From an uncultured Gammaproteobacteria bacterium (GTDB lineage: Bacteria > Patescibacteriota > Patescibacteriia > Magasanikbacterales > UBA922): a stretch of 64,000 nucleotides of DNA. Under the pieces are notes generated by a model. The model had not been told where the DNA came from. It worked only from the letters and a program-made list of their open reading frames with translations, and ran no database searches. Shown in pieces: positions 4,834-33,665 of this stretch. A program made the position numbers and the translations under genes. The stretch's first letter is position 1. Every line of letters starts with the position of its first letter. The stretch covers positions 55,259 through 119,258 of the forward strand of contig CAYSXR010000001.1 in assembly GCA_964435035.1 (NCBI GenBank), given 5' to 3'.

Positions 4834-4837
4834 TCAG

Positions 4838-6250: not shown

Positions 6251-6253
6251 TAT

Positions 6254-7588: not shown

Positions 7589-7589
7589 T

Positions 7590-11038: not shown

Positions 11039-11047
11039 GTTTAAACT

Positions 11048-11587
11048 GTGAAAGAAAAGAATTTTCAAAAGATGTTTGACGTGGATAGGCTCGAGTATAA
11101 TCTGAGAATATCGTCATTATATTTAACAGCCTATGAACTCTTAAAAAGTTCAATAGTGGACAGGCTTGTTAGTTTTTTTTCAGATTTTAATTATAAAGAT
11201 GGTAAGCCTGTAAAAACACTTGAATATAAAAATGAGCTTAATAAATTTGATAAAAATGATAAATTTAGAGCTTCATGTCTATGGCTTCATGATATGAAAG
11301 CCTTAGATATGAAGGATGTAACTGAAATTCTAAAAATTAGAGAACATAGAAATGAAATTGCTCATGAACTAGCAAAATTTTTGATAGATGATACGCAAGA
11401 GATCGATATAAATAAATTCCACAGTATCAATAATTTATTAAAAAAAGTTGATGTTTGGTGGATTATTAATTTCGAGATGACTATTATGCCAGACTTTAAT
11501 ATTAATTCAGAACAAGGTGTAAATGAAGTGGAATCTGGTAATATGCTCCTTTTGGAATATTTAATATCAAAAGTTAAAATAAGTTGA
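11048..11587 (+). CDS. hypothetical protein (179 aa), probably co-transcribed with the OLD-family gene
   Basis: 9-bp gap from the upstream gene and the same AT-rich composition. No motif recognised. Confidence 0.4.
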   Translation: MKEKNFQKMFDVDRLEYNLRISSLYLTAYELLKSSIVDRLVSFFSDFNYKDGKPVKTLEYKNELNKFDKNDKFRASCLWLHDMKALDMKDVTEILKIREHRNEIAHELAKFLIDDTQEIDINKFHSINNLLKKVDVWWIINFEMTIMPDFNINSEQGVNEVESGNMLLLEYLISKVKIS

Positions 11588-11645: not shown

Positions 11646-11846
11646 CAAAAACACCCGAATTCGGGTGTTTTTAGGAGGGGATGACTAGCGGTCACCCTCC
11701 AGGGTGTGTCCAACAGTGTGCACCACCACGGTCCAGATAATTACACCTACAGTCAACCAAGGGATTTTATAGGGGTATTTTTAGGTAGTGAGGGATGCCT
11801 CTCGGTCGGGGGTCAGTTTCTATGGGAAATGAGACAAATGAGACAG
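11646..11846. repeat. Dispersed ~200-bp repeat, copy B (hairpin aaaaacacccgaattcgggtgttttt at 11646-11672; ends ...aatgagacaaatgagaca)
   Basis: Shares the hairpin, the 'gatgactagcggtcaccctccaggg-gtgtccaacagtgtgc' block, 'ctacagtcaacc', 'ctctcggtcgggggtca' and the terminal tandem 9-mer with copies A, C and D. Confidence 0.6.
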
Positions 11847-13885: not shown

Positions 13886-15169
13886 TCAGCCGTTACGCGC
13901 ACCATAGGTAGCGAGACCATACGCGACTGATGCGAAGGCGTCACCTGTCACGACCTTGCCTGTTTCGGGGAACAAGTCCTTGAGCCTGCGTTGAAACGCT
14001 GGAACATGGGACGTGCCACCCGTCACGAAGACGTGGTCGATTTCGTCAGGGATGATGTCATGCTTGTCGAGGAACTTTTCCAGCTCCGAGATGATGCCAT
14101 CGATGACTTGTAAGGTATAGGCTTCGAATTCATCGCGAGTCAACGTCGTGTTGACGTCGAGGTCGTCCTCCTCGAAACGAAGCGCAGTGCTATCGGTTCC
14201 GGTGAGGTTTTTCTTTGCCTGCTCGATCTCCCTGAAGAGTTGCAGACCGTAGTTACCCTGCACGAGGGTCATGAGCCGTTTGATCGCCTTGGGATTGTCC
14301 GAATGACGTTGGATCTCGATGATCGTGTTGATCGTCTTTCGGTCCCGAAGCAGGGGGATCAGGTGCGGTCGCCGGAGTTGGTAGGTGATCGCATGCGGCA
14401 TGGGCATCACGTTGCCGAACATGCTCTTGTAGGTGCTGTTGCGCCCGAAGAGATGTGCCAACTTTTCCCACATGATGGCCGAATCGAAGTCGTCTCCTCC
14501 CAATCGAGTACCGGCTACACCGATGACGTCGATGGTTCCTGACGGCATGACTTTGGCCAGGGTGAAGTCGGATGTTCCTCCGCCGATGTCGCACACCACG
14601 ACCGTTTGAGGGTCGGTGTTGTGAAGCTTGTGGGCGTAGGCGTAGAGCGCACCGACCGGTTCTTCGCAGAGCGTAATCGGACCAAAGCCAGCTCGTGCTG
14701 CGGCTCGGGTCAAACGCTCTTTTGCGATCTGGTGCATTTCCGGATCGTTCGAGAACCTGACAGGATGTCCGAGGACCACCTCCTTAATCTCGATCCCCGT
14801 CTCATCGAGGACTCGTCGCTTCAGAAGGTTGAGGAAGGTATAGACCAAATCCTCCGCGTTCATCTGCTTGCCCTGGATGATGGTGTGGTCGAACGTTCTA
14901 CTCGACAACGTCGACTTGATCGAGCGGAGGTAGCGACCATTGTCAGGATCGTCCATGTACTCTCTGGTAGCCGCTTCTCCGATCAGGATTCGTGATGTTC
15001 CATTTTCAAAGAAAAGGACAGTTGGAGTTGAGTTTACGCGTGTATCTCCTTGAGAAAAGGTGAGGGGTACCGTAGTGGTGCCATCGCTCACGGCGACAAC
15101 AGTATTGGTGGTTCCGAAATCCAGACCGATTACCTTTTTCACTTTCTTGTTCCTTGCGTGTATGAACAA
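13886..15169 (-). CDS. Hsp70-family ATPase, nucleotide-binding domain only (YegD-like), high-GC foreign gene
   Basis: IGLDFGTTNT, VVCDIGGGTSDF, LGGDDFD and VFVTGGTSHVPAFQ match Hsp70/actin-fold NBD motifs. There is no substrate-binding domain. GC is about 57%. Confidence 0.6.
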   Translation of the reverse strand: MFIHARNKKVKKVIGLDFGTTNTVVAVSDGTTTVPLTFSQGDTRVNSTPTVLFFENGTSRILIGEAATREYMDDPDNGRYLRSIKSTLSSRTFDHTIIQGKQMNAEDLVYTFLNLLKRRVLDETGIEIKEVVLGHPVRFSNDPEMHQIAKERLTRAAARAGFGPITLCEEPVGALYAYAHKLHNTDPQTVVVCDIGGGTSDFTLAKVMPSGTIDVIGVAGTRLGGDDFDSAIMWEKLAHLFGRNSTYKSMFGNVMPMPHAITYQLRRPHLIPLLRDRKTINTIIEIQRHSDNPKAIKRLMTLVQGNYGLQLFREIEQAKKNLTGTDSTALRFEEDDLDVNTTLTRDEFEAYTLQVIDGIISELEKFLDKHDIIPDEIDHVFVTGGTSHVPAFQRRLKDLFPETGKVVTGDAFASVAYGLATYGARNG

Positions 15170-15400
15170 AAGCTACTCTAGCATAATAAGTGAAAAAATC
15201 AAGGCTAATGCTAGAATTAAGAATTTCTAGTAGATTAAGATTTTTTGGCTAGTTTATCATTGTTTTACCGATAAAAAGTTGACGAAAAGCTATGTATAAA
15301 GTATAATTTTCGTATTCTAAAGATATATGAAAAGATTGGTATTAGAAAAGTTTTTACTATGTTAACGCAATAAAACCGTCCAATTAGGCGGTTTTTCTAT

Positions 15401-17239
15401 ATGCTAAATGATAATGTTAAAAAAATAATGGTTGATACTGCTAGAAAGCATATCAAGCAAACGCAAGAAAAGATTAGCGAAGCCGTAGAAATTCAGGAGG
15501 AACGTTTGCGTACTAAAAATAAAAGAACAATTGGCTTAATGCCAAGTGATGTATTAGTTGAAGCAAAATTAACAAGTATTCTCCAAGAGCAGGTTGAACA
15601 TTTAAAGCAGCTATTTCCATCACCTTACTTTACATATTGTGAATTCGAAACAGATTCAGGAGATAACAAGAGACTGTATTTTGGAAAATTTTCATTTCGT
15701 GATCAGGATATTTATTCGTGGGTTACTCCGATTGCAACACTTCGTTTTGAACAGTTAGGTCGTGTAAGTTATAAAAGACCTGATAATGCGATTAAGCATG
15801 GAACCTTACTAAAAAGAGATCAGTATCTTATTGTTGATGGTAAATTAGTTTTTTTAGCAACTGAAGAAAAAGGAATACCAAGAGAGTTGGTATATCAAGA
15901 ACATTTTAGTCAAAAAAAAGAAGGATTCATATTGCCCGAAGTAATTGAGCAAATGGAAAAAGCCCAGGATCAGATTATCCGTGCAGGATATCGAGGCCCC
16001 TTAGTAATATCTGGCCCTGCAGGTTCTGGAAAAACAACTTTAGCTTTACATCGAGTAGCATTTTTAATGCAATCACCTGACAGTGCTGAATATTTTCCGC
16101 ATGATAAAATTTTAGTTTTTGTTCAAGATGAAAACACCAAAGATTATTTTTCACATCTCCTTCCTGAACTTGGGATTAAAGGTGTAGAGATTGTAACATT
16201 TACTGGGTGGGCATTGCAGGTATTAAGATTAAATGGTGTAGTTATCGAAAAAATAAATAATACGCAGGATACTAATCTCGAAATTTATAGGTATAATAAA
16301 TTAGAAATTCTAAAATTGGAAAAAAATATAGAGTGGAAAAAGGGAAGTCTTTTTTCTTTTTTGGATAAAGTTTACAAAAATACATTATCAGCAAAAGAGT
16401 ATAGTATTTTTGTAAAACAAAAAAAAGAAAAAAAGCTTGATCGTATTGATTTAATTTTTTTACTCACAGCAAAATATAATTCTTCAAAAGAATTTTCAGT
16501 ATTTCATGAAGTATACGAAGAATTAAAAAATGGCAGTTATCGCAAGAAGAAAATTGCACAGCCAACTCTGTATAATCTGCTCATTATTGATGAGTTTCAG
16601 AACTACCTTCCTGAAGAATTAAAAATACTGAAGTCATGTCTTAATAGTAGACTTAATTCAGTTGTCTACACGGGCGATTTCAATCAACAAGTAATTTCAG
16701 GCTCGATTAAGAATTGGAATGAAATTGATGAATTGGTGGATATTGAAAGAATGATTATTTTACAAAAAGTATATAGAAATACGAAGCAAATTTTATTATA
16801 TATTCGTTCTTTGGGATATGAAGTTAATATTCCGGAACAGTTAAAAGAGGGAGAAGAGGTTAGAGAGATTAAAACAAATAGTTGGAAAGAAGAAATTGAG
16901 TTTATCACTAGTAAAGATGAATCTCAGGATATGGTTATCGGTGTTTTAGCGTTTAATGAAAATTATCTAAAACCCTTTAAAGATTATTTTTCCAATAAAT
17001 CAAATATTCATATAATGACTATTAGTGAGTCACAGGGTGTGGAGTTTGAGTCAACATTTTTGGTAGGAATTGACGCTAGTATCTTTGATGTAAGTTTATT
17101 TCCAACACAAATGCAGGAAGAGAGAAAAAAAATGATAAAAGATTTGTTATATGTAGGCCTCACCCGTGCCATGAGTGGTATGCATGTTTGTGGTAAATAT
17201 TCTCTACGTGAACTATTTAAAGAATTTAATCCAAGTTAG
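15401..17239 (+). CDS. Superfamily-1 UvrD/Rep/HelD-like DNA helicase
   Basis: GPAGSGKTTLALHR (Walker A), LLIIDEFQNY (motif II), YVGLTRAM (motif VI), and a ~190-aa N-terminal extension as in HelD-like proteins. Confidence 0.55.
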   Translation: MLNDNVKKIMVDTARKHIKQTQEKISEAVEIQEERLRTKNKRTIGLMPSDVLVEAKLTSILQEQVEHLKQLFPSPYFTYCEFETDSGDNKRLYFGKFSFRDQDIYSWVTPIATLRFEQLGRVSYKRPDNAIKHGTLLKRDQYLIVDGKLVFLATEEKGIPRELVYQEHFSQKKEGFILPEVIEQMEKAQDQIIRAGYRGPLVISGPAGSGKTTLALHRVAFLMQSPDSAEYFPHDKILVFVQDENTKDYFSHLLPELGIKGVEIVTFTGWALQVLRLNGVVIEKINNTQDTNLEIYRYNKLEILKLEKNIEWKKGSLFSFLDKVYKNTLSAKEYSIFVKQKKEKKLDRIDLIFLLTAKYNSSKEFSVFHEVYEELKNGSYRKKKIAQPTLYNLLIIDEFQNYLPEELKILKSCLNSRLNSVVYTGDFNQQVISGSIKNWNEIDELVDIERMIILQKVYRNTKQILLYIRSLGYEVNIPEQLKEGEEVREIKTNSWKEEIEFITSKDESQDMVIGVLAFNENYLKPFKDYFSNKSNIHIMTISESQGVEFESTFLVGIDASIFDVSLFPTQMQEERKKMIKDLLYVGLTRAMSGMHVCGKYSLRELFKEFNPS

Positions 17240-17240
17240 T

Positions 17241-18320
17241 ATGAAAGAACTCACCGTCTCGCTTCCTCATGGAAAAAAACAAAAGATTTATATAGGCTCA
17301 AATTTGAGTGAGCGTCTGGTGGAAATTACGCGAAAAGAATATGACCGAGTATTTTTAGTAATTGATAAAGAGGTATATAAGAGGTATAAAGTTTTTATAC
17401 AGAATTTAATTTCAAAGATAAAACCAGTGTCAATACATGTGATAAGAGCAGGTTCAAAAGATTTATCAGAAAGTGTAAAACTTATTAATGCAATGGTGGA
17501 GGCAGAGTTGAACCGAAATAGTTGCGTGCTTGCATTTGGAGGAGGATATGTGGGTGATTTGGTAGGATTTTGCGCGTCAATTTACATGCGGGGTATTGAT
17601 ATGCTGTATTATCCGACTACGTTTATTTCCCAGGCTGATACTGTATTAGGAAAAGTTGGTGTCAATTATGATAATCATAAACATATTTTAGGAAGTTTCT
17701 TTTGTCCACGTTACACATTTTGTGATGAAGAGTTCTATCCCAAGAATGTATCAGAAAGTTTTTTATACGGACTAGTCGAAGTATGGAAGCATACACTCAT
17801 CAAAGAAGACAAGATTGTTTCGGACTACGTTGATGGTGCATTATTTCATAAAGAACTTCCTCCATTTGAAACAATCACATATCGATCAGTTGCAGCAAAG
17901 AAATTTTTTGTGCAAAATGATTTTCATGACACGAAAGGTCTGCACAAAGCTTTGAGTCTCGGACATACACTTTCAAATCACTTAGAATCTTTGGCAGAAA
18001 TACACCATGGTGTGGGAGTATTGATCGGTATTATTTTTGATACATTTTTATCAAAAGAACTAGGGCTTATTGATGATAAAAAGATGGGTTCAATATTGCG
18101 AATAGCGTCTCAGTTTAAAGAAAATTTTACAATTCCTCGGTCTATAGCGAGTATACTTAAAAGTAAGAATTTTTTAAGACGTGTTAAGTATGACAAGATC
18201 AATTCCCATAGTACCTTTACATTTGTTTTGCCCACTACCAAAGGTTATGTGATTAAAAAAGATATATCTGAGATAATGGTACAAAATGCGATTCGGTCTC
18301 TAAATAAATTTTTGCTATGA
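17241..18320 (+). CDS. Sugar-phosphate cyclase of the 3-dehydroquinate-synthase superfamily (DHQS/DOIS/EEVS-like)
   Basis: AFGGGYVGDLVGFCASIYMRGIDMLYYPTTFISQADTVLGKVGVNY closely matches the DHQS NAD/phosphate-binding core. GHTLSNHLE and HHGVGV match the metal ligands. Confidence 0.6.
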   Translation: MKELTVSLPHGKKQKIYIGSNLSERLVEITRKEYDRVFLVIDKEVYKRYKVFIQNLISKIKPVSIHVIRAGSKDLSESVKLINAMVEAELNRNSCVLAFGGGYVGDLVGFCASIYMRGIDMLYYPTTFISQADTVLGKVGVNYDNHKHILGSFFCPRYTFCDEEFYPKNVSESFLYGLVEVWKHTLIKEDKIVSDYVDGALFHKELPPFETITYRSVAAKKFFVQNDFHDTKGLHKALSLGHTLSNHLESLAEIHHGVGVLIGIIFDTFLSKELGLIDDKKMGSILRIASQFKENFTIPRSIASILKSKNFLRRVKYDKINSHSTFTFVLPTTKGYVIKKDISEIMVQNAIRSLNKFLL

Positions 18321-19435
18321 AAATACACCTAAAATCTCCAATATCTGACAGTTGGAGACAAGATGCTTTAAAAAAAATAAAAGACATTCAGGAAAAGAAT
18401 CCAGGCATTTCTATAACTAAAGAGCTACTGGGTGGAGCAACGAATACTCTTAAATATTTAGCAACATTTGATGGAGCTAAACTTTTTATTAAAATCGGAG
18501 AAAAAGTCGAACGTGAAAAAGAAGTGTATAAGCAAATAGAAGATAATGATATTTTTTTAAAAAACGTAAATCTGCAAAATGAATCCTCAGATCTTTTAGT
18601 GCTTCCTTATTATGAAGGGGTTTCTTTAGAAGAAAAAACATTACAAAATCCTTCAGAAATAGCTAAGCATACTAAATTAATTATAGAAGTTTTACAGAGA
18701 ACGTTTTCAAAGTATTGGGTGAGGAACATAAAAAAGAACGGAGGTAGTGATTTTGGAGTGAGTTTGTTGAAAAAGCGCTATCTTGAATTAAATAATCATA
18801 TTAATGCAATTTCATTCGAAAGTGGTGATGAATATAGTTTTGATGGTTTTGCTACTCGTCCAGTAGTGATACAGAAAAATAACAAAGAAATTAAGCTCCC
18901 CTCAATAAAGCAGATGACGGAGAAAATTCTCAAACTACTTGATAAACTTAAGCCTTATGATGGGTACGGGATATTAGGTGATTTTCAACCGCCAAATATT
19001 CTGATTTCAAAGGAAGGAATAAAAATAGTAGATATTTCAAATGTTGTAGATGCGGGCGACATTGCGTTCGATATTGGAAAATTTTTCAATTACTATAATA
19101 GATTTTTTTCAATTGCAGTAGTACGTGATGGTCATAAGAATAATAATTCTCATAAAATTACTATTAAAAATGGTATCATATATGTACATCAAGAAAAAGA
19201 TCATTACTCATATGCAGATAAAAAAATCATTGAAACGGTGGAAGAGGATTTTTGTGTGCATGTTGCTAAAGAATTGAATGATTACACAATTTCAGACCGA
19301 GTAAAATTGTATAAATTTGTTGTTTCTCTACTAACCATTAAAAGACATCTACAGTTCGATGGGTTAGATGAAATGCTTATTGGAAATCTTGTTGACGCAT
19401 ATTACGAGATACATAGAAAAGTTTTACATATATAA
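18317..19435 (+). CDS. APH/choline-kinase-fold small-molecule kinase
   Basis: Glycine-rich N-lobe, catalytic ILGDFQPPNILIS and DISNVVDAGD...DIG (Brenner-type motif and DFG-like). Confidence 0.45.
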   Translation: MKIHLKSPISDSWRQDALKKIKDIQEKNPGISITKELLGGATNTLKYLATFDGAKLFIKIGEKVEREKEVYKQIEDNDIFLKNVNLQNESSDLLVLPYYEGVSLEEKTLQNPSEIAKHTKLIIEVLQRTFSKYWVRNIKKNGGSDFGVSLLKKRYLELNNHINAISFESGDEYSFDGFATRPVVIQKNNKEIKLPSIKQMTEKILKLLDKLKPYDGYGILGDFQPPNILISKEGIKIVDISNVVDAGDIAFDIGKFFNYYNRFFSIAVVRDGHKNNNSHKITIKNGIIYVHQEKDHYSYADKKIIETVEEDFCVHVAKELNDYTISDRVKLYKFVVSLLTIKRHLQFDGLDEMLIGNLVDAYYEIHRKVLHI

Positions 19436-19436
19436 T

Positions 19437-20702
19437 ATGACAAGAAGAATTGAAGGATCGCTTGTTTCTCACGAGCATACAAATCCTAAACAAGAAATAA
19501 CAACACTTGAGAGATTAGAGGCAAATGCTGAAAAATGGGTGCTTTCATTTCTTGAAAATGAAGGTATAACTGGAGCATCAGTCACTGAAATTAATAAAAC
19601 AACAAAGAGCGTTTTTGGGTCAGTTGAATTTGGAGAAAAAAAACACTTCTTTAAAATTTCTGATGCAGAAAAAATTGCCTATGAGCTTGAAGGCTACAAG
19701 ATTGCGGAGGACTACAAACATGAGACGATCCACCATCATTATTTTGATGCAGAAGAAGGTTATGGACTATACATACAAGATTACTGTGATGAAGTAAGTG
19801 TTGATTCGGGTCTTGCAATACATGAGATAAATAGCGCTCTTGGCAAATCACCCGAAGAACAAAAAAAGATTGAGGATAAATTGGCAGAGGTATATCGAAA
19901 AATTCATGAAATATTTGAATCAACGCTTACTGAGGATAGATATGTTTTGTCAGGTAGGAACGATGCATTCTTCCATGAACGACTTAAAAAAGATGGACGT
20001 ATTGATAGCTATTATGGAAAAAGGAGTTTTAAATTTGAAGATTCAAAAAAAGATATCGTTGCTGAGGAGTTATTTACGTATTTAATTAGCTGCAATGGAG
20101 AAGACGGAATTGTCATACAAGATGTTATTGAAAAAGCACAACATGATCTTGATCCTGAAAAACCTCGCGTATTCGTGGTGTCCCAAGGAGACTTAACAGA
20201 GAGTAATGTTAGTGTAGAAGGAACTTTTTTTGACTTTGAAGCAGCTGGTTTAAATTCATTGATTCAGGAATTAGCTATTTATTTGGTATATACATATGTG
20301 AATGGTCACTACATCACCCCAAAGTATTCAAAGTCTACTGATCAAACATTTTCAAAGCAATTCGAACAATCAATTACAACCGAATATGTTCTTGATGAAG
20401 AAAGTAAAAAAATGGATATAGTAATGAATTATCCATTACCTGAATTAAAGCGAGCCCTCATCGAACGTTTTACAGATATTGTAATAGCTCCTATAGAAAG
20501 AAAATTAAATCCAGCTGAAAGTACTCAACTCGTTAAAGAATTACAATCTGCAATTGCATTGCGTCTGATTGCGGTTAAGAATATACTCAAATTTGAAGAA
20601 AAGGACGTATTGGTAACGCTCGGACTTTTGAGCAAATTATGTAAGGCGGGAGATGAAAAAACTTTAGAAGAATTTATAAAACAACGTTTTGTTAGTATAT
20701 AG
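19437..20702 (+). CDS. Second kinase-like protein (APH fold, more divergent)
   Basis: VFVVSQGDLTESNVSVEG...FDFEAAG resembles the hGDlhpgNvlv...iDfE catalytic loop. The ATG at 19437 is preferred. Confidence 0.3.
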   Translation: MTRRIEGSLVSHEHTNPKQEITTLERLEANAEKWVLSFLENEGITGASVTEINKTTKSVFGSVEFGEKKHFFKISDAEKIAYELEGYKIAEDYKHETIHHHYFDAEEGYGLYIQDYCDEVSVDSGLAIHEINSALGKSPEEQKKIEDKLAEVYRKIHEIFESTLTEDRYVLSGRNDAFFHERLKKDGRIDSYYGKRSFKFEDSKKDIVAEELFTYLISCNGEDGIVIQDVIEKAQHDLDPEKPRVFVVSQGDLTESNVSVEGTFFDFEAAGLNSLIQELAIYLVYTYVNGHYITPKYSKSTDQTFSKQFEQSITTEYVLDEESKKMDIVMNYPLPELKRALIERFTDIVIAPIERKLNPAESTQLVKELQSAIALRLIAVKNILKFEEKDVLVTLGLLSKLCKAGDEKTLEEFIKQRFVSI

Positions 20703-20704
20703 TT

Positions 20705-21685
20705 ATGAACATCACTTCACTTATTGATAAAAATAAAAAAACTATTTTGAGCCTTGATCTGGATAACACGATAGTAAATCGAAAGAAAGGGGATAATTAT
20801 GTACTACCTGCTCTTAAGAAAGCTCTCGAAAGGATAATGAAAAGCGAATCGATTATCCCTGTTATCAATACAGGACGCGACATTATCGGATATCGCGCAT
20901 TCCAGCGAGAAGTGTTGGATATCGGCGATGCAGTTCTTGGATCAGGAACATTGATAGTTCATGACAATACGATAGATTTAAATGAAAAAGGTTTTATTGA
21001 TGTCGTGTGTATTGAAATTCTGGAGAATGCCGTGAAAAAAGGTAAATTGCCTTTTATAGATATAACTCATGCAGAAGGTAGGATCATTGTATATAATGAA
21101 CAGGAAGTTAAAGATCTTAACGCAGAAGACCTATTTTATTCTCAGACACCAAGAACATGGTTTGAAACCAAACAACCGATAACTAAAATTAATGATTATA
21201 TACGTCCAAAACACATTTTCCGTATTGAAATCCCAGTCTTTAAAGATCATATAGAAAATCTCTATAATGAACTAGTTAATAAATCAGATGATGCATTGGT
21301 AGATTTAAATAAGTTTTTGCATTCCGAGATTGATATACGGAAGTTTGTCCTTAACAGAAAAGTATTTTTTAATGATTCATTTCAAGGAAGAGTAATTTTT
21401 GGAAGGTTCCAGAAAAGCGAATCTGAGATGAATAAAGGTTTTGGTCTCCAAAAATGGTTAGCCTCCAAAGAGTTTACACCTCTAGATTTTAATATCTTCC
21501 ATATAGGAGATAAAGATAAAGGTTTAGTGAATGACGTACTTATTAAAGATCATGTACCCAATGCCCATATTATAATGGTTAATAGTAGGACAAAAAATAA
21601 TCCGGCTGTAAGTTTGTATCTAGAAGGAGATACTGATAAAAGCATTGTAGAATTTATAACAAGTATTGTTGAAGCCTATGTTTAA
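20705..21685 (+). CDS. HAD-superfamily phosphatase-like protein
   Basis: N-terminal LSLDLDNTIV (DxDxT motif I) and a length of 326 aa. Confidence 0.35.
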   Translation: MNITSLIDKNKKTILSLDLDNTIVNRKKGDNYVLPALKKALERIMKSESIIPVINTGRDIIGYRAFQREVLDIGDAVLGSGTLIVHDNTIDLNEKGFIDVVCIEILENAVKKGKLPFIDITHAEGRIIVYNEQEVKDLNAEDLFYSQTPRTWFETKQPITKINDYIRPKHIFRIEIPVFKDHIENLYNELVNKSDDALVDLNKFLHSEIDIRKFVLNRKVFFNDSFQGRVIFGRFQKSESEMNKGFGLQKWLASKEFTPLDFNIFHIGDKDKGLVNDVLIKDHVPNAHIIMVNSRTKNNPAVSLYLEGDTDKSIVEFITSIVEAYV

Positions 21686-22247
21686 AAAAAAGATATTTTC
21701 TCAAAACGATTTACATTGGATTAATTACTTTATTATCAAAGAAGATCGTGAGAAGATGGGGGAAAAAATTAAAGGGACTCGTACAGAAAAGCTATTTGCA
21801 TTTAAGAGTGGAGACTATTCACATATACAAGAAATAGTAGGATGGGTTGCTGACATATTAGATACTGACCCTATCGTAATTGTCCCATATCCATCGACTA
21901 ATCCAAATAAAGATAAAAGTATTCAACTTCCGTATGTAGTAGCAGGGGAACTCGCAAAAATAAACAAGAATTGGATTGATGGATCAGGATATCTTAAGCG
22001 TAAATTTGAGTTACCTAAAAATACCAGAGATGTTAATTCGCAGTATGAAAGTTTGGAATTTGAATTAAACAAGGAATTTAAGAATTTTCCTATTCTACTA
22101 CTTGATGATGTGACCACCTCTGGTAGTTCACTTGAAGCAGGGCTAAAGGTAATCCGAGAGAAAAGTGAAAAGGGACAAGAAATTAGCAGTCTTGCGGTGG
22201 CAAAGAAGGTTTTCTTGAAAGAAGTTCCACCAGGAGCTTTATATTAG
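21678..22247 (+). CDS. Type I phosphoribosyltransferase-domain protein
   Basis: PILLLDDVTTSGSSLEAG matches the PRPP-binding motif. Confidence 0.4.
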   Translation: MFKKKIFSQNDLHWINYFIIKEDREKMGEKIKGTRTEKLFAFKSGDYSHIQEIVGWVADILDTDPIVIVPYPSTNPNKDKSIQLPYVVAGELAKINKNWIDGSGYLKRKFELPKNTRDVNSQYESLEFELNKEFKNFPILLLDDVTTSGSSLEAGLKVIREKSEKGQEISSLAVAKKVFLKEVPPGALY

Positions 22248-22251
22248 AATT

Positions 22252-23433
22252 ATGCTGTATTACATAAGCCATAGTGCTGTTGAAAAGGAAGAGCGTGGAA
22301 ATCAACTCCAGGTTAAGCTGTCTTTTGAATATGTATCAAAAAAGATTCCAGTAGTAGGGATATTTTTAAGTGGCAAAAAGAAGATATATACCAAGATACA
22401 GCATGCGGGCAATAAATATATAATTGACTATAACACTTGCTTTGATTGGATCGAAAAAATATTGGGTATTATTTCTTTTAAGAAAAATATTACTCCAAGT
22501 TTATTTGCCTTTAAAAGCAGTAAAATAATAAAAAAAGATACTCAAGAAAAAGACGTTTATTTGCGAATTTTTAGTCTTATTGACGGTATCTTCTTTATTA
22601 AAAGAATGAATAAATTCAAGATACGTAAGCTTGCGTGTGAGTTCCATGACATTGATTATAAGTTGCCAATGTACAAAAAGAACATAGACAGAATCTTTAG
22701 AAAATATATTTTTAAGTCTTTTATTAAACATGCGGTAAATGCCGGAGAAAAAGTAACCTTGGTAACGGTATCGCATACCTTAGCTGAACAATTTTCTAAA
22801 GAATTTAGCTATCCATATAAAATCGCTGTAATCCCTAATGGTCATAATTTTGAACATTTAGAGCCTAAAAATAAATATTCTTTTGGGAACGACCATATAA
22901 AGATTATTTATACAGGCTTGAATTTGTATAAAATGAAAGGACTCAATCATCTTATTGAAGCTTTAGATTTTCTTGACCATAGATTTTTAGTGCATATCAT
23001 TGGGGGAACCGATGCACACCGCAATGAACTTAATCAGAAATATAAAAAATTTGTAGCTCAAAAAAGGTTGATTATTGATCCACCGAAAAATCATCAGGAA
23101 ATGATAGGTTATATGCAAAAAGCTGATCTTGCGGTAATTCCACTTCCTAAGAATGATTTTTCTTTATTTACTTCGCCATTAAAATTGTTTGAGTATATGG
23201 CTGCGGGGTTACCAATTGTGGCGAGTGATGTACCGACAATCAAAGAAGTTATTAATGATAGGCAAGACGGTCTGTTGTATGAAGCTGGAGATGTGCATTC
23301 TATGGTCCAAATGATTAAAATTTTAGTTAGTCATAAAAGTTTAGCTGAAACTATAGGAAAAGGAGCGTATAGAACCTCTAAAAATTATACATATGAGAAA
23401 CGTGCAGAGAGAATATTAGAGATTTTTAATTAA
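22252..23433 (+). CDS. Glycosyltransferase family 1 (GT4-like, GT-B fold)
   Basis: C-terminal FTSPLKLFEYMAAGLPIVASDV...DGLL matches the GT1 E-x7-E region. Confidence 0.55.
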   Translation: MLYYISHSAVEKEERGNQLQVKLSFEYVSKKIPVVGIFLSGKKKIYTKIQHAGNKYIIDYNTCFDWIEKILGIISFKKNITPSLFAFKSSKIIKKDTQEKDVYLRIFSLIDGIFFIKRMNKFKIRKLACEFHDIDYKLPMYKKNIDRIFRKYIFKSFIKHAVNAGEKVTLVTVSHTLAEQFSKEFSYPYKIAVIPNGHNFEHLEPKNKYSFGNDHIKIIYTGLNLYKMKGLNHLIEALDFLDHRFLVHIIGGTDAHRNELNQKYKKFVAQKRLIIDPPKNHQEMIGYMQKADLAVIPLPKNDFSLFTSPLKLFEYMAAGLPIVASDVPTIKEVINDRQDGLLYEAGDVHSMVQMIKILVSHKSLAETIGKGAYRTSKNYTYEKRAERILEIFN

Positions 23434-23538
23434 AAAAAATTACTTTTTATTTCATTTTACTAAACAAAAAAACTGCAGAAGAAGGAGGGTACTTCAGCAG
23501 GTTATTATGCCTCATAAGGAGGTAATTATATTATAATT

Positions 23539-23997
23539 TCACTTCTTCTTAAACTTACTATCTCCCTTAATAAGGCCAACCAAATCCTCCTCCCGCTCAT
23601 ACCCTCGTAACCTCCCACTCACATATCCCATCCTATAACTCACCCCGTCACTCGTGAGTCTCCAATTCGTATCCTTCAAGGTCTTCTTAAGTATTTTCTT
23701 CAACTCATACTCACTTTCCTGTTGAGGACGATCACTCTTACTATCATAGATGCCAAACGGCACAATCACATCTTTGGTAATCTGAGGAGGAGATAACTGT
23801 AACTTAGTATATCCTTCATTCTCTAACGTAGTACTAAGCAGTTTTTCAAGATCAAGAATCGTGAGCTTCTGAATCTTTGCAACTTTCTCATACAACTCAG
23901 TATTCGCTTCTTTCTCTTTCCATTCTTTGACCATGTCCCCAATGCGCTCAATACCAGCGAATTCTATTCTCCATTTTTCTCCCTCTTCTTCTGACAA
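23539..23997 (-). CDS. hypothetical protein (152 aa; TTG start). Overlaps the upstream ORF by 34 nt, so it may be the frameshifted 3' part of one gene
   Basis: Lys/Glu-rich ORF in the same orientation as, and overlapping, 23964-24263. Confidence 0.3.
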   Translation of the reverse strand: MSEEEGEKWRIEFAGIERIGDMVKEWKEKEANTELYEKVAKIQKLTILDLEKLLSTTLENEGYTKLQLSPPQITKDVIVPFGIYDSKSDRPQQESEYELKKILKKTLKDTNWRLTSDGVSYRMGYVSGRLRGYEREEDLVGLIKGDSKFKKK

Positions 23998-24263
23998 ACA
24001 AAACCTGGCACGGTCAGCTTCAAAATGTAGATCAGGTACATCAGTCTGAACTGTTCTTTTGTATCTGAATTTACTAAGTATATAGGAGCAAAAGCAGAGC
24101 CACCCTCAAAAGTAACGGATGTTTTATTTTTGCTTAATGCAGAGGCTAAAAGTTTAAGAGCGCTTTCGCACTCTAATATATTATCCCCATGAATTCTTAA
24201 ATGCTGGATTCGTGACATTTTAGACGTTATATAATGAAAATACGATAACATTTTTTGTTCCAA
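23964..24263 (-). CDS. hypothetical protein (99 aa)
   Basis: ORF only. Confidence 0.3.
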   Translation of the reverse strand: MEQKMLSYFHYITSKMSRIQHLRIHGDNILECESALKLLASALSKNKTSVTFEGGSAFAPIYLVNSDTKEQFRLMYLIYILKLTVPGFVCQKKREKNGE

Positions 24264-24339: not shown

Positions 24340-25623
24340 TTGAAGTTTGTTAAAAAATTATTTCTTATGGAGGATCAGCCTACAGCATTAGATTATCACC
24401 TTAATAAAAAACCTCATAGAACGTATGTGAGCAAATCCTTAAAGAGAACAAATCCCGTGGACAATACCACACATTTTACGAGAATTGTTAGTAAGGTTGT
24501 CGACTGTAAGAATTTTTACGAGATGTATAAAGAAAAGAACTCAGTAGTTTTAAGGTTAAGTCCGGGAGAAAGGCAGGAAGTGATAGCGAAGGTCGATGAG
24601 GATAGTAGGGGATTTTACTTACTTATACAAAGATTTAATAAAAGATCAGGCACCCCTACTCAAGAATCTTTTTGTTTTAGGTCTGATGAATTGAAAAAGC
24701 TTTTAGACTTTATAGAATCCTTGTCAATTATTGATTTTAGTGACAAGAACAAATTTAAAATTGAGGATGCTGCATTATTAGCAGCAAAAAAATTACTCAA
24801 TGATGATCCAGATTTAGCACTAGAAATTATTCAAAATAAAATTACGAAATCTGACGTTGTTGCTCTTGCTTACCGTAAAACTCAGTTGCAGATATTTCAT
24901 AACTTGCTAAATGATGAAAGTTTTTTTGAAATGAAAAAAAACGAATGGAACAAAGCCAGAAACGAAGATGTTTGGCAGTATTTTTTTGAAGAAAATAAGT
25001 GGATTTTTGGTTATGGTCTAAACTTTGTATTTAACTCTTCTCTCGAGGGGAAAAAACTAGAGCAAGTTATTAAAGGGGCAGATTTGGAAAATGCAGGTAA
25101 ACGTGTGGACGCTCTACTCAAGACAAGAGGAATAATTAATTCCCTTTGTTTAGTTGAAATAAAAACGCATCTTACCCCGTTGTTGAAACAAGTAAAAAAT
25201 TCATATCGCTCAGCTGCATGGAGCGTCTCTGATGAATTTAATGGCGGATTGGTGCAAACACAAAAAACTTCGCAAATTGCATTGGAAAATATAAAAAACA
25301 AATTTGAAACTACAGACAATGAAGATAATCCAACTGGTGAAACGATTTATTCTTATAAACCAAAATCGTATTTGATAATAGGAAGTCACCGAGAGTTTCT
25401 GGCAGATAATGGATTCGTTAATAAAGAAAAATATTCTTCCTTTGAGTTATTTAGAAAAAATATTCTTAATCCAGAGGTAATAACTTTTGACGAATTATAT
25501 GAACGAGCTAAATTTATTGTTCATGATAATGAAAAGAGTGCAGAAAAAAAGGATGAAAGTATTGTGGAGGTAGAAGCAGAAGAGACGATAAATGAAATCA
25601 ATATAAGTGATATACCTTTTTAA
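24340..25623 (+). CDS. Protein with a C-terminal PD-(D/E)xK nuclease-like core. Possibly Shedu/DUF4263-like
   Basis: ...RVDALLKTRGIINSLCLVEIKTH...Q gives D-(x15)-E-x-K. The N-terminal 230 aa are unassigned. Adjacent to a tRNA. Confidence 0.35.
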   Translation: MKFVKKLFLMEDQPTALDYHLNKKPHRTYVSKSLKRTNPVDNTTHFTRIVSKVVDCKNFYEMYKEKNSVVLRLSPGERQEVIAKVDEDSRGFYLLIQRFNKRSGTPTQESFCFRSDELKKLLDFIESLSIIDFSDKNKFKIEDAALLAAKKLLNDDPDLALEIIQNKITKSDVVALAYRKTQLQIFHNLLNDESFFEMKKNEWNKARNEDVWQYFFEENKWIFGYGLNFVFNSSLEGKKLEQVIKGADLENAGKRVDALLKTRGIINSLCLVEIKTHLTPLLKQVKNSYRSAAWSVSDEFNGGLVQTQKTSQIALENIKNKFETTDNEDNPTGETIYSYKPKSYLIIGSHREFLADNGFVNKEKYSSFELFRKNILNPEVITFDELYERAKFIVHDNEKSAEKKDESIVEVEAEETINEINISDIPF

Positions 25624-25650: not shown

Positions 25651-25728
25651 AAAAACACCCAAACGGGTGTTTTAATGTGTCCTTCAGGACTATGACTAGC
25701 GGTCACCCGGGAGGGGTGTCCAACAGTG
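25651..25728. repeat. Partial copy D of the dispersed repeat (hairpin aaaaacacccaaacgggtgtttt plus the 'tgactagcggtcacccgggaggggtgtccaacagtg' block), abutting the 3' flank of tRNA-Leu
   Basis: Shares about 75 bp with copies A, B and C, then runs directly into the tRNA instead of the remainder of the repeat. Confidence 0.55.
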
Positions 25729-25810
25729 TGCTCAGGAGAGGACTCGAACCTCCAAGCCTTTCGGCGCTACCACCTCAAGGTAGTGCGTCTACCAATTTCG
25801 CCACCTGAGC
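25729..25810 (-). tRNA. tRNA-Leu (anticodon GAG), type II with long variable arm, CCA not encoded
   Basis: Reverse complement is GCTCAGGTGGCGAAATTGGTAGACGCACTACCTTGAGGTGGTAGCGCCGAAAGGCTTGGAGGTTCGAGTCCTCTCCTGAGCA. The cloverleaf folds, with anticodon loop TTGAGGT and T-loop GGTTCGAGTCC. Confidence 0.8.
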
Positions 25811-27331: not shown

Positions 27332-27420
27332 AAAAGCCTGAAAGGCCGGAAATGCTTGAAATGCCTGAAAGGCTGGGCAGGCTTTTCTATACCCTTTCAG
27401 GCTTTTTTAGCCTTTCCAGC
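27331..27420. terminator. Nested palindromic element: the 15-bp perfect IR aaaaagcctgaaagg...cctttcaggcttttt encloses further gcctgaaaggc mini-hairpins
   Basis: Arms are at 27331-27345 and 27393-27407, with internal 'gcctgaaaggc' repeats. Lies between the convergently or tandemly arranged sugar-transferase and GT genes. Confidence 0.4.
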
Positions 27421-27428
27421 CTTTTAAT

Positions 27429-28535: not shown

Positions 28536-28536
28536 T

Positions 28537-29664: not shown

Positions 29665-29665
29665 T

Positions 29666-30889: not shown

Positions 30890-30983
30890 ACACTTGTACA
30901 CAACAAGTATTCAAAAAGCGGCGTAAATCATAGCTACAGAGAGAGAAAATATGCTATACTCCGTACATGCTTGATGTGTTCCC

Positions 30984-33653: not shown

Positions 33654-33665
33654 TTTTTTTATCTT

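What the first reader, a model, noticed from the sequence alone, without database searches (positions are those of the whole stretch)
17241..23433. Six-gene block (DHQS-like sugar-phosphate cyclase, two APH-fold kinases, HAD phosphatase, PRTase, GT4) suggests a cyclitol or carbocyclic-nucleotide pathway inside a defense island
A 3-dehydroquinate-synthase-superfamily cyclase with an intact cofactor/metal motif set is followed without gaps by two aminoglycoside/choline-kinase-fold kinases, a DxDxT HAD phosphatase, a type-I phosphoribosyltransferase (LLLDDVTTSGSS) and a GT1 glycosyltransferase. There are no shikimate-pathway neighbours, so this is not aroB. The combination of cyclase, kinases and PRTase is the logic used to build carbocyclic nucleoside analogues (cyclitol phosphate to pyrophosphate donor to base attachment). 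With the phosphatase and GT it also fits pseudo-sugar or aminocyclitol-type chemistry. The block sits between a helicase and nuclease genes (OLD upstream, PD-(D/E)xK downstream) in an AT-rich island. A small-molecule antiviral such as a chain-terminating nucleotide analogue or an aminocyclitol is therefore an attractive, untested hypothesis. A compatible-solute pathway (cyclitol glycoside via GT plus phosphatase) is the mundane alternative.
Basis: inference. Interest (0 to 1): 0.7.

Follow-up and report, generated by a model that had tools for sequence, protein, structure and literature searches.

The report
Rare cyclitol-building operon beside HelD
A tightly packed operon in a tiny-genome (candidate phyla radiation) bacterium encodes a previously undescribed type of sugar-ring-forming cyclase, two small-molecule kinases, a phosphatase, a phosphoribosyltransferase and a glycosyltransferase; the block recurs in a handful of other such bacteria, often next to an RNA-polymerase rescue factor, so it probably makes an unknown sugar-like small molecule, but whether that molecule fights viruses is untested.

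Summary
Six co-directional ORFs (17241-23433), spaced by 8-nt overlaps to 4-nt gaps, encode a DHQS-superfamily cyclase, two APH/choline-kinase-fold kinases, a HAD-IIB phosphatase, a type-I PRTase and a GT4. The cyclase is not AroB. It belongs to a separate clade in which three residues invariant in 68 AroBs (R/N/H) are invariantly H/S/N, a fingerprint that also differs from annotated DOIS and sedoheptulose-7-P cyclases. The block is a conserved syntenic cassette at 33-51% identity in four or five other CPR lineages and is very rare (10-11 clusters in 5.8 billion proteins). The upstream "helicase" is HelD-like (RNA-polymerase recycling factor). It starts the operon here and also abuts the cassette in three other lineages. 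A sister cassette around the same cyclase and kinase carries NUDIX, a nucleotidyltransferase and P-loop nucleotide kinases instead. In this window the cassette lies in a low-GC segment next to tRNA-Leu, with Shedu and an OLD nuclease; elsewhere it sits among housekeeping genes. No PADLOC model matches except a weak ShosT hit for the PRTase. Best reading: a pathway for a cyclitol-derived, ribosylated or glycosylated metabolite that acts inside the cell. The antiviral carbocyclic-nucleotide idea is neither excluded nor supported directly.

The parts
15279..15307 (+). Best sigma-70-like promoter match (TTGACG-17-TATAAT), in the gap upstream of the HelD-like gene; putative operon promoter
   Evidence: 11 of 12 matches, top hit of the region; consensus match only, and the total number of hits was not above the shuffled expectation
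15401..17239 (+). HelD-like SF1 ATPase (RNA-polymerase recycling factor family), first gene of the operon; its stop lies 1 nt before the cyclase start
   Evidence: B. subtilis HelD 6wvk_H E 1.1e-40, including the N-terminal region; NCBIfam HelD_BACSU 121 bits, below cut-off 419; 44-51% identical orthologues abut the cassette in L095, L097 and L011
17241..18320 (+). DHQS-superfamily sugar-phosphate cyclase of a new clade (fingerprint K220/H235/S239/N246/K319)
   Evidence: (aroB model 212 bits < 305)
18317..19435 (+). kin1: APH/choline-kinase-fold small-molecule kinase, specific to the window-type cassette
   Evidence: (11 clusters only)
19437..20702 (+). kin2: APH/ChoK-fold kinase; the partner of the cyclase in both cassette types
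   Evidence: (gene call starts at 19437)
20705..21685 (+). HAD-IIB (Cof / sucrose-phosphatase-like) phosphatase with all four HAD motifs
21678..22247 (+). Type-I phosphoribosyltransferase, ComF/ShosT-like, acceptor unknown
22252..23433 (+). GT4-family (GT-B fold) glycosyltransferase; present in 3 of the 5 cyclase-containing window-type lineages
23508..23524 (+). Terminator-like hairpin after the GT4 gene
   Evidence: pattern match only
13886..15169 (-). YegD-like HSP70/actin-fold ATPase, divergent from the operon; a recurrent neighbour of the cassette and of the HelD-like gene; GC 0.54
11681..11721 (+). Left copy of a ~41-nt imperfect direct repeat (16-nt exact core)
25692..25731 (+). Right copy of the direct repeat, overlapping the 3' end of tRNA-Leu(GAG) (25728-25810, minus strand)

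Best explanation
**What it is.** A seven-gene operon in a CPR (Ca. Magasanikbacteria-like) genome. A HelD-like RNA-polymerase-associated ATPase is followed by a six-enzyme cassette. The cassette most likely builds a small, intracellularly acting metabolite: a carbocyclic sugar (cyclitol) that is phosphorylated, joined to a ribose-phosphate unit and, in most versions, glycosylated.

**Proposed steps.** Only the enzyme classes and intact catalytic residues are shown; substrates and step order are inferred.

1. The new-clade DHQS-like cyclase uses the conserved NAD+/metal chemistry (oxidation, phosphate elimination, reduction, aldol). It converts a sugar phosphate other than DAHP into a keto-cyclitol and loses the phosphate.
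2. kin2, the cyclase's constant partner, and kin1 phosphorylate two hydroxyls, and the HAD-IIB phosphatase removes one phosphate. This two-kinases-plus-phosphatase phosphate relocation is what AcbM/AcbU/AcbJ do in acarbose biosynthesis.
3. The ComF/ShosT-like PRTase couples the cyclitol (or its phosphate) with PRPP. The phosphatase may instead act here, on the 5'-phosphate.
4. GT4 adds a hexose.

**Sister cassette.** It keeps the cyclase and the kin2-like kinase. It replaces kin1/HAD-IIB/PRTase/GT4 with a Pol-beta-type nucleotidyltransferase, NUDIX hydrolases and P-loop nucleotide kinases. This suggests that the common theme is linking the cyclitol to a ribose-phosphate or nucleotide handle.

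**Mobility and partners.** The cassette is accessory and horizontally mobile. It repeatedly sits next to HelD-like and YegD-like ATPase genes, which hints that the product touches transcription. Its physiological role (antiviral, antibacterial, signal) is not established.
For: - **Enzyme identities and catalytic residues:**
- **Operon structure:** junctions range from an 8-nt overlap to a 4-nt gap. The best promoter-like site lies before the HelD-like gene and a terminator-like hairpin follows GT4.
- **Conserved cassette:** the same gene order at 33-51% identity in L095, L097/L098/L104, L017 and L183; the kin1-kin2-HAD triad alone in L182.
- **New cyclase clade:** monophyletic in NJ trees. H/S/N is invariant (17 cassette + 4 sister sequences) where 68 AroB have R/N/H, annotated DOIS have G/E/H and annotated SH7P cyclases have (K/A)/D/P.
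- **Shared core with the sister cassette:** cyclase 36-42% identical, kin2-like E 1e-13 to 1e-21.
- **Nucleotide-handling partners around this cyclase clade:** NUDIX, NTase, tandem Walker-A kinase, NDK fusion, adenosine deaminase, HIT.
- **Experimental precedent for cyclase + two kinases + HAD phosphatase + activation + GT:** acarbose pathway, PMC9200736.
- **Accessory and mobile:**
  - kin1 family has 11 clusters and the PRT family 10 clusters among 5.8e9 proteins.
  - kin2 has 18 representatives at E<=1e-30 among 1.84e9.
  - Cassette GC is at or below both flanks in 11 of 11 loci and in the window.
  - A tRNA-Leu and 41-nt direct repeats flank the segment.
- **HelD-like adjacency:** seen in window, L095, L097/L104 and L011 in three arrangements, although the helicase has no conserved neighbour in general.
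- **Points to an intracellular product:** no transporter, regulator or aminotransferase is called within any window-type cassette.
Against: - No substrate or product is known. The order of steps and the acceptor of the PRTase are inference only.
- The closest structural relatives of the PRTase (ComF, ShosT) themselves have no known acceptor.
- The kinases belong to different families from AcbM/AcbU, so the acarbose analogy is one of logic, not homology.
- The HelD-like family is widespread without the cassette: 79 of 80 metagenomic loci lack it. Cassette-linked copies are interspersed with cassette-less ones in the tree. The adjacency could therefore reflect an insertion hot spot rather than function.
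- The NJ trees have no support values. The DOIS and SH7P-cyclase comparators are only two database-annotated sequences each, and no EboD/DEIS sequence could be included.
Confidence: 0.55

Rival explanations
1. One reading: the cassette makes a carbocyclic or otherwise chain-terminating nucleotide analogue that blocks phage replication or transcription. The cyclase gives the carbocycle, the kinases build a PRPP-like pyrophosphate donor, and the PRTase attaches a base. The co-encoded HelD-like factor would clear the host's own stalled RNA polymerases.
For: - The window context includes Shedu, an OLD nuclease and low GC next to a tRNA.
- The PRTase's nearest relatives include the defence toxin ShosT.
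- L006 places the sister cassette beside Pycsar and methyltransferases, and L008 places it beside AbiEii.
- Nucleotide kinases, NDK, NUDIX, HIT and adenosine deaminase occur around this cyclase clade.
- L017 has a third APH-like kinase.
- HelD-like linkage.
- No exporter is present, so the product probably acts in the cell.
Against: - DHQS-type chemistry removes the phosphate and normally gives six-membered rings.
- From general enzymology (not tested here): type-I PRTases work through an oxocarbenium-like transition state, which a saturated carbocycle cannot stabilise.
- The cassette contains a phosphatase and a GT, which would take a nucleotide away from the triphosphate form.
- The sister cassette has no base-attaching enzyme.
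- Several cassettes sit among housekeeping genes.
- No PADLOC match apart from the weak ShosT hit.
Confidence: 0.17
2. Mundane alternative: the cassette makes a compatible solute or a cell-envelope building block, that is, a cyclitol glycoside made as a glycoside phosphate by GT4 and released by the HAD-IIB phosphatase (as for sucrose, mannosylglycerate or the mycothiol precursor), possibly feeding the neighbouring exopolysaccharide locus.
For: - The GT4 plus S6PP-like HAD-IIB pair.
- An EPS locus starts 2.5 kb downstream, with a polyprenyl glycosylphosphotransferase, three GT4 genes and DUF4012.
Against: - GT4 is absent from L017, L183 and L182, while the HAD is always present.
- The EPS locus lies beyond the tRNA and the direct repeat and has a different GC.
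- No EPS genes lie next to the cassette in L095, L097, L017 or L183.
- This idea does not explain the PRTase, the second kinase or the nucleotide-handling partners.
Confidence: 0.13
3. The genes form a drug-tolerance cluster rather than a biosynthetic one. The APH-fold kinases, the glycosyltransferase and the PRTase would inactivate an incoming antibiotic, and the HelD/HelR-like protein would protect RNA polymerase, as in actinobacterial rifamycin resistance (HelR, Rph, Rgt, Arr; from memory).
For: - HelD/HelR similarity.
- Kinase fold shared with aminoglycoside, hygromycin and corramycin kinases.
Against: - A catalytically intact sugar-phosphate cyclase and a HAD phosphatase are constant members and have no role in drug inactivation.
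- The strict synteny looks like a pathway.
Confidence: 0.05
4. The cyclase is an ordinary AroB, and the remaining genes are unrelated neighbours.
For: The best NCBIfam and PDB sequence matches are 3-dehydroquinate synthases.
Against: - The score is below the aroB cut-off (212 against 305).
- Three AroB-invariant active-site residues are replaced.
- It falls in a separate clade.
- No shikimate genes were found among the window ORFs scanned or among the genes annotated in the related loci.
- The gene order is conserved with the other five genes.
Confidence: 0.02

Closest known systems
C7N pseudo-sugar pathways (acarbose acb, validamycin val/vld)
   Same: A DHQS-superfamily cyclase starts the pathway. 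Two cyclitol kinases and a HAD phosphatase relocate a phosphate (AcbM, AcbU, AcbJ). An activation step and (pseudo)glycosyltransferases follow (PMC9200736). The sister cassette even has a nucleotidyltransferase at the activation position.
   Different: - The cyclase fingerprint is not that of sedoheptulose-7-P cyclases.
- The kinases here are APH/ChoK-fold, not the ROK-type and other sugar-kinase-like families used for the acb and val cyclitol kinases.
- Activation would be by a type-I PRTase instead of a GlgC-like nucleotidyltransferase.
- There is no aminotransferase, epimerase or reductase.
- The host is a CPR bacterium, not an actinomycete.
2-deoxystreptamine aminoglycoside pathways (butirosin, neomycin, ribostamycin)
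   Same: A DHQS-like cyclase (DOIS) acts on a hexose phosphate, and a GT4 enzyme glycosylates the cyclitol. From memory (Kudo et al. 2007, not held in the library): a PRPP-dependent O-ribosylation of the pseudo-disaccharide is followed by a phosphatase (BtrL/BtrP). APH-fold kinases belong to these systems.
   Different: - The DOIS fingerprint (G/E/H/N) is not met.
- There is no aminotransferase, dehydrogenase or deacetylase, so no amino groups are expected.
- Homology between this PRTase and BtrL was not tested (no sequence available).
AroB (3-dehydroquinate synthase)
   Same: Same fold, NAD and metal sites, and most catalytic residues. It is the best sequence match.
   Different: R/N/H is replaced by H/S/N at three invariant substrate-site positions. 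The score is below the equivalog cut-off, the clade is separate, and there is no shikimate context.
ShosT (ShosTA defence toxin) and ComFC PRT domains
   Same: These are the nearest structural neighbours of the PRTase, with a PADLOC ShosT hit at 1.2e-10. The PRPP loop is intact. In all three the acceptor is unknown.
   Different: There is no N-terminal pyrophosphatase domain, no DprA-like ShosA partner and no ComF zinc finger. Here the PRTase is embedded in a metabolic operon.
HelD / HelR RNA-polymerase recycling ATPases
   Same: The N-terminal region plus SF1 core align to B. subtilis HelD (E 1e-40). HelD and HelR are the best NCBIfam models.
   Different: It is shorter (612 against 774 aa) and scores below the equivalog cut-offs. 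Linkage to a biosynthetic cassette has, as far as I could find, not been described.
[quoted passage not shown]
   Same: A cryptic, widely scattered operon built round a non-AroB DHQS-like cyclase with an unknown end product (PMC12904256).
   Different: The partner genes are entirely different (UbiA prenyltransferase, TatD, TIM barrel, phosphodiesterase).

Membership tests
AroB / 3-dehydroquinate synthase (shikimate pathway) | Scores above the curated equivalog cut-off of TIGR01357 | tested here: not met
   211.7 bits against cut-off 305
AroB / 3-dehydroquinate synthase (shikimate pathway) | Substrate-site residues R264, N268, H275 (A. nidulans numbering, from memory), invariant in AroB | tested here: not met
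   68 of 68 AroB-type sequences have R/N/H; the window protein and all 17 cassette cyclases have H235/S239/N246
AroB / 3-dehydroquinate synthase (shikimate pathway) | Other shikimate genes nearby or in the genome | tested here: not met
   None among the window ORFs scanned or among the genes annotated in related loci. The rest of the genome could not be examined.
DHQS-like sugar-phosphate cyclase superfamily | NAD-binding glycine motif, three metal ligands, catalytic D/K/K/K | tested here: met
   G100-102, D106, D133, K138, K147, E180, K220, H242, H256, K319 are conserved
2-deoxy-scyllo-inosose synthase | Active-site fingerprint, and aminotransferase partners in the cluster | tested here: not met
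   Annotated DOIS have G/E/H/N at 235/239/246/319 against H/S/N/K here. No aminotransferase in any cassette.
Sedoheptulose-7-phosphate cyclases (EEVS/DDGS/EVS) | Active-site fingerprint | tested here: not met
   Annotated SH7P cyclases have M220, (K/A)235, D239, P246, (V/L)319. Only two comparator sequences, named by database annotation.
APH / choline-kinase-fold small-molecule kinases (kin1, kin2) | Bilobal kinase fold with beta3 Lys, alphaC Glu, DxxxxN catalytic loop and metal-binding Asp | tested here: met
   kin1 model pLDDT 86.8, Foldseek to 3mes, 4r7b, 2pun, 3w0s at E 4e-8 to 5e-7. Residues invariant. kin2 is linked by hhalign only (79%).
HAD-IIB phosphatases | Motifs I-IV and a type IIB cap | tested here: met
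   Motifs are invariant in six orthologues. TIGR01484 HAD-SF-IIB 3.5e-7 and S6PP / Hydrolase_3 hits. The cap itself was not modelled.
Type-I phosphoribosyltransferases | PRPP-binding loop (acidic pair followed by T/S-G-x-T/S) on a PRT Rossmann fold | tested here: met
   DDVTTSGSS is invariant. The model (pLDDT 93.7) matches ComF, ShosT, PyrR and HGXPRT.
ShosTA defence system | ShosT = pyrophosphatase domain + PRTase; partner ShosA (DprA-like) | tested here: not met
   The protein is 189 aa with a PRT domain only. No DprA-like gene in the window segment or related loci.
Gabija | GajA (OLD-type ATPase-nuclease) immediately followed by GajB (UvrD-like helicase) | tested here: not met
   The OLD-type gene ends at 11038 and the helicase starts at 15401, with three genes and a strand switch between them. 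The helicase is HelD-like, including its N-terminal region.
HelD (RNA polymerase recycling motor) | HelD-specific N-terminal region plus SF1 ATPase core; binding to RNA polymerase | tested here: inconclusive
   The sequence aligns to HelD residues 67-296 and 541-753 (E 1e-40). The NCBIfam score of 121 is below the cut-off of 419. RNAP binding is not testable here.
Known or candidate anti-phage systems (PADLOC-DB 2.0) | Any cassette protein matching a defence model | tested here: not met
   Cyclase, kin1, kin2, HAD and GT4 have no hit. The PRTase has only a ShosT-type PRT hit. The sister cassette gives only generic NUDIX and NTase hits.
Acarbose/validamycin-type pseudo-sugar pathway | SH7P cyclase, cyclitol kinases, HAD phosphatase, NDP-transferase, pseudo-glycosyltransferase | tested here: not met
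   The enzyme roles are analogous, but the cyclase class differs. The NDP-transferase is absent from the window cassette, and no pseudo-GT homology was shown. The resemblance is one of logic only.

The most novel reading that the evidence does not exclude
The cassette family would be a CPR-specific chemical immune system. It would synthesise a cyclitol-derived nucleotide mimic that poisons transcription or replication of invading phage. The co-located HelD-like motor (and perhaps the YegD-like ATPase) would strip the host's own poisoned RNA polymerases. That would make it a small-molecule defence with a built-in polymerase-rescue arm, mechanistically unlike viperins or any listed defence system.
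Probability: 0.12. Interest if true: 0.9.

Novelty: new variant of a known kind. Interest (0 to 1): 0.6.

Why it matters
- **Unexpected in CPR bacteria.** These organisms have minimal genomes and are thought to make few specialised metabolites. A rare, mobile, six-enzyme cyclitol pathway in them is unexpected.
- **A new cyclase subclass.** It defines a further subclass of the DHQS-like sugar-phosphate cyclases, with a clean three-residue fingerprint that can be used for genome mining.
- **A link to transcription.** The recurrent linkage to a HelD-like RNA-polymerase recycling factor suggests a link between a small-molecule pathway and transcription that I did not find described. It could represent self-protection, regulation or defence.
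- **If antiviral.** It would extend small-molecule-based immunity beyond viperins, and to organisms that cannot yet be cultured alone.

Tried and rejected
1. **AroB.** Rejected on score, fingerprint, phylogeny and context.
2. **Helicase as GajB of a Gabija system with the upstream OLD gene.** Rejected. It is HelD-like along its whole length and is separated from the OLD gene by 4.4 kb and a strand switch.
3. **HelD-like gene as a dedicated cassette component.** Rejected in the strong form.
   - 79 of 80 metagenomic loci with this helicase lack the cassette.
   - The helicase has no conserved neighbour.
   - Cassette-linked copies do not form a clade.
   - Only the weaker statement stands: the cassette is found next to it far more often than chance (4 of about 13 lineages).
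4. **Phage origin.** No kin1 relatives in IMG/VR. The only cyclase hits there are 27-29% AroB-like.
5. **Riboswitch or other RNA leader.** Rfam finds only four tRNAs in the window.
6. **Single-sequence PDB searches.** kin1, kin2, HAD and GT4 gave nothing useful. Profile searches helped only for HelD.
7. **Literature.** Eight full-text searches found no description of this cassette or of a DHQS-like enzyme in phage defence or in Patescibacteria. The papers that define the 14-residue SPC fingerprint and EboD were not held. I therefore derived the fingerprint comparison from annotated plasmid genes.
8. **Island polymorphism among close Magasanikbacteria relatives.** This could not be checked because contig look-ups were exhausted.

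Full report
**1. What is in the sequence**

Six + strand ORFs fill 17241-23433. Independent gene calls on identical metagenomic contigs agree with them and place the starts of genes 3 and 5 at 19437 and 21678. The junctions are a 4-nt overlap, 1-nt and 2-nt gaps, an 8-nt overlap and a 4-nt gap.

The gene before them (15401-17239) stops one base before the cyclase ATG. The best promoter-like match of the region (TTGACG-17-TATAAT, 15279-15307) lies in front of that gene, and a terminator-like hairpin follows the last one (pattern matches only). The unit is therefore best read as a seven-gene operon.

Its GC is 0.30-0.34, against 0.39-0.43 for the genes outside 8.3-25.7 kb.

**2. The six enzymes**

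- **Cyclase.** It matches both Pfam halves of 3-dehydroquinate synthase (1e-25 and 1e-19). It keeps the NAD motif, the metal ligands and the catalytic Asp and Lys residues.
- **kin1 and kin2.**
  - Both hit Pfam APH only weakly.
  - An AlphaFold model of kin1 (11-sequence alignment, pLDDT 86.8, pTM 0.89) matches choline kinase, pneumococcal LicA, 5-methylthioribose kinase and hygromycin kinase APH(4)-Ia (E 4e-8 to 5e-7).
  - Both families keep the Lys / Glu / DxxxxN / Asp constellation.
  - They are related to each other (hhalign 79%, E 1.5e-5).
- **Phosphatase.** All four HAD motifs are invariant in six orthologues, and it falls in HAD-IIB.
- **PRTase.**
  - This 189-aa protein has the PRPP loop DDVTTSGSS.
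  - Its model has pLDDT 93.7, and the closest structures are H. pylori ComF and the ShosT toxin, then PyrR and purine PRTases.
  - The only PADLOC hit in the block is ShosT, at 1.2e-10.
  - ShosT binds PRPP, but its acceptor is unknown (PMC11961720).
- **GT4.** The assignment is solid.

**3. The cyclase is a new branch, not AroB**

The cyclase scores 212 bits on the aroB equivalog model, whose cut-off is 305. Its nearest relatives (36-42% identity, about 40 clusters) come from Parcubacteria, Saccharibacteria, Kazan and similar CPR bins.

Neighbour-joining trees included 68 AroB-type sequences fetched in the same scan. In them, the 17 cassette-linked cyclases form one clade, with a small CPR/DPANN sister group (no support values).

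Three positions separate the groups cleanly:

| Group | 220 | 235 | 239 | 246 | 319 |
|---|---|---|---|---|---|
| AroB (68 sequences) | K | R | N | H | K |
| Cassette clade (17) and sister group (4) | K | H | S | N | K |
| Annotated 2-deoxy-scyllo-inosose synthases (2) | K | G | E | H | N |
| Annotated sedoheptulose-7-P cyclases (2) | M | K/A | D | P | V/L |

Positions use window numbering. The comparator sequences came from plasmid records. In AroB, residues 235, 239 and 246 correspond, from memory, to the carboxylate- and phosphate-binding R264, N268 and H275 of the A. nidulans enzyme.

The chemistry is therefore probably conserved, and the substrate is neither DAHP nor obviously that of any characterised class. 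No shikimate gene was found among the window ORFs scanned.

**4. The block is a conserved, rare, mobile cassette**

The same genes in the same order occur at 33-51% identity in several loci:

| Locus | Source | Content |
|---|---|---|
| L095 | NCBI MAG contig | Full six-gene cassette |
| L097 / L098 / L104 | Metagenome contigs | Full six-gene cassette |
| L183 | Metagenome contig | Lacks the GT4; an unrelated GT-like gene comes first |
| L017 | Kazan bacterium | Lacks the GT4; adds a third APH-like kinase and a HIT protein |
| L182 | NCBI MAG contig | kin1-kin2-HAD only, beside pyrophosphatase, NUDIX and NDK genes |

The families are very small:

- kin1 has 11 clusters among 5.8 billion proteins.
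- The PRTase has 10 clusters.
- kin2 has 18 representatives at E<=1e-30 and 188 at E<=1e-3 among 1.84 billion.

Cassette GC is at or below that of both flanks in all 11 related loci examined.

In the window, a tRNA-Leu(GAG) gene (25728-25810) ends the low-GC region. A 41-nt imperfect direct repeat (11681-11721 and 25692-25731, with a 16-nt exact core) brackets 14 kb. That 14 kb holds an unknown 340-aa gene, a YegD-like ATPase, the operon, two small genes and Shedu. A truncated serine recombinase and an OLD-family nuclease lie just to the left. L018 has a full-length serine recombinase next to a related cyclase cassette.

The window organism is close to Ca. Magasanikbacteria, judged from an AspRS cluster at 90% identity or more.

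**5. A sister cassette**

In at least eight CPR lineages the same cyclase clade sits in a second arrangement:

- NUDIX
- kin2-like kinase (E 1e-13 to 1e-21 to the window kin2)
- Pol-beta-type nucleotidyltransferase
- optionally a TobZ-like carbamoyltransferase
- a small HAD
- the cyclase
- a second NUDIX
- a 387-aa protein with two Walker A motifs, the first of thymidylate-kinase type
- sometimes an adenosine deaminase, or two radical-SAM enzymes

The sister-group cyclase in L024 is flanked by an NDK/P-loop kinase fusion and a NUDIX/nucleotidyltransferase fusion.

The constant core is thus the cyclase plus the kin2-type kinase. The variable part always handles ribose phosphate or nucleotides.

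**6. The helicase**

The helicase aligns to B. subtilis HelD, including HelD's characteristic N-terminal region (PDB 6wvk_H, E 1.1e-40). Its best NCBIfam models are HelD and HelR, although below their cut-offs. It is not a Gabija GajB.

Orthologues at 44-51% identity abut the cassette in several arrangements:

- L095: divergent, upstream of the cassette.
- L097 / L104: downstream of the cassette.
- L011: downstream of the sister-type cassette.

The family is common without the cassette: 79 of 80 metagenomic loci lack it. It has no conserved neighbour, and cassette-linked copies are scattered in its tree.

The dependence is therefore one-sided. The cassette lies beside this gene in about 4 of 13 lineages, far more than expected for a genome of roughly a thousand genes. 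The helicase, however, does not need the cassette.

A YegD-like HSP70-fold ATPase shows the same behaviour. It occurs in the window, L183 and L097/L104, and with the helicase alone in L137 and L178.

**7. Defence or not**

In favour of a defence role:

- Shedu (PADLOC 6e-135) and an OLD-family nuclease flank the operon here.
- L006 places the sister cassette beside Pycsar and methyltransferases, L008 places it beside AbiEii, and L095 has Fic and Phd next to the cassette.
- The distribution is patchy and the DNA looks acquired.

Against a defence role:

- L017 and L097 place the cassette between aminoacyl-tRNA synthetase, Sec, ribosomal and cell-division genes.
- Apart from the ShosT-type hit for the PRTase, no defence model matches.
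- No relatives of the kinase were found in viral contigs.
- The architecture is a pathway, not a sensor and effector pair.

I regard a defence role as possible, not shown.

**8. Most likely mechanism**

The best-supported reading is a biosynthetic pathway for a cyclitol-derived metabolite.

The experimentally established acarbose route offers the closest logic (PMC9200736):

1. A DHQS-like cyclase starts the pathway.
2. A first kinase acts.
3. A second kinase makes a bisphosphate.
4. A HAD phosphatase removes the first phosphate, leaving the pseudo-anomeric phosphate.
5. Nucleotidyl activation and (pseudo)glycosyl transfer follow.

The invariant kin1-kin2-HAD triad fits that phosphate-relocation scheme.

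The PRTase in the window type and the nucleotidyltransferase in the sister type both transfer a ribose-phosphate-containing group with release of pyrophosphate. The parsimonious common theme is attachment of such a group to the cyclitol. PRPP-dependent O-ribosylation followed by dephosphorylation is known from butirosin biosynthesis (from memory).

No transporter, regulator or aminotransferase is called within any window-type cassette, which argues for an intracellular, non-aminated product.

The enzyme classes and their intact active sites are shown. The substrates, the order of steps and the product are inferred.

**9. Rivals**

- **Carbocyclic-nucleotide antiviral.** This idea gains some support from the nucleotide-handling neighbours and the HelD link. 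It is weakened by three points: the phosphatase and GT in the cassette, the lack of any base-attaching enzyme in the sister cassette, and the poor fit of a saturated carbocycle to PRTase chemistry (general knowledge).
- **Compatible solute or envelope precursor.** This fits the GT4 plus HAD-IIB pair. It does not fit the optional nature of the GT4, the PRTase or the contexts.
- **Drug-inactivation cluster.** This does not explain the cyclase.
- **Plain AroB.** This is contradicted.

**10. Verdict**

It is a conserved, very rare CPR cassette built on a new DHQS-like cyclase subclass, with a recurrent link to an RNA-polymerase recycling factor.

It is a new variant of a known kind of system (sugar-phosphate-cyclase pathways). 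Its product and role are unknown. The attractive antiviral reading remains a minority hypothesis.

Noticed in passing
window 11681-11721 and 25692-25731; tRNA-Leu(GAG) 25728-25810 (-): A ~41-nt imperfect direct repeat (16-nt exact core GTGTCCAACAGTGTGC), one copy overlapping the 3' end of a tRNA-Leu gene, brackets a 14-kb low-GC segment. It looks like the att sites of an integrated element, but no intact integrase lies inside.
   Followed up: partly
window 8357-9097 and 9173-11587: A serine recombinase fragment (Recombinase and zinc-ribbon domains, no catalytic resolvase domain) is followed by an OLD-family ATPase-TOPRIM nuclease (hits Old, AriA and GajA models) and a 179-aa unknown gene. This may be the remnant of a second, tandem island carrying a two-gene OLD-type system.
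   Followed up: partly
window 13886-15169 (-): A YegD-like HSP70/actin-fold ATPase has GC 0.54 inside a 0.30-0.36 GC region. Homologues (34-37% identical over full length) recur next to the cassette (L183, L104/L097) and next to the HelD-like gene without the cassette (L137, L178).
   Followed up: partly
window 24367-25623 (+); 23539-24263 (-): A full-length Shedu SduA (PADLOC 6e-135) lies downstream. Before it are two overlapping small minus-strand genes (152 and 99 aa) of unknown function; the 99-aa one weakly resembles the N-terminus of a type II restriction enzyme model.
   Followed up: no
L006 2664-12746 (ENA metagenome scaffold): The sister cassette (NUDIX, kinase, NTase, carbamoyltransferase, HAD, cyclase, NUDIX, tandem P-loop kinase) lies directly after a Pycsar-like pair (nucleotide cyclase + PycTM), an S24 peptidase and two DNA methyltransferases.
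   Followed up: partly
L011 3392-5458: One sister-type cassette inserts two radical-SAM enzymes (one with a SPASM domain) and a glyoxalase-fold protein right after the cyclase. This suggests further tailoring of the same core product.
   Followed up: no
L021 8679-14295 (Woesearchaeota MAG): An archaeal (DPANN) member of the H/S/N cyclase group sits with a glucose/sorbosone dehydrogenase, a P-loop kinase-like protein, a methyltransferase and a xylose-isomerase-like TIM-barrel protein. This is a third, different context for the cyclase type.
   Followed up: no
window 4781-8177: Upstream of the island, a PLP-dependent Orn/DAP/Arg decarboxylase-like gene, a PALP-rhodanese fusion and a SAM methyltransferase are tightly packed. 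This may be another small-molecule module.
   Followed up: no
window 25913-35756 and 40523-49678: An exopolysaccharide-type locus (polyprenyl glycosylphosphotransferase, three GT4 genes, DUF4012 and DUF11 proteins) starts right after the tRNA. Further on there is a single 3051-aa ORF of unknown function.
   Followed up: no
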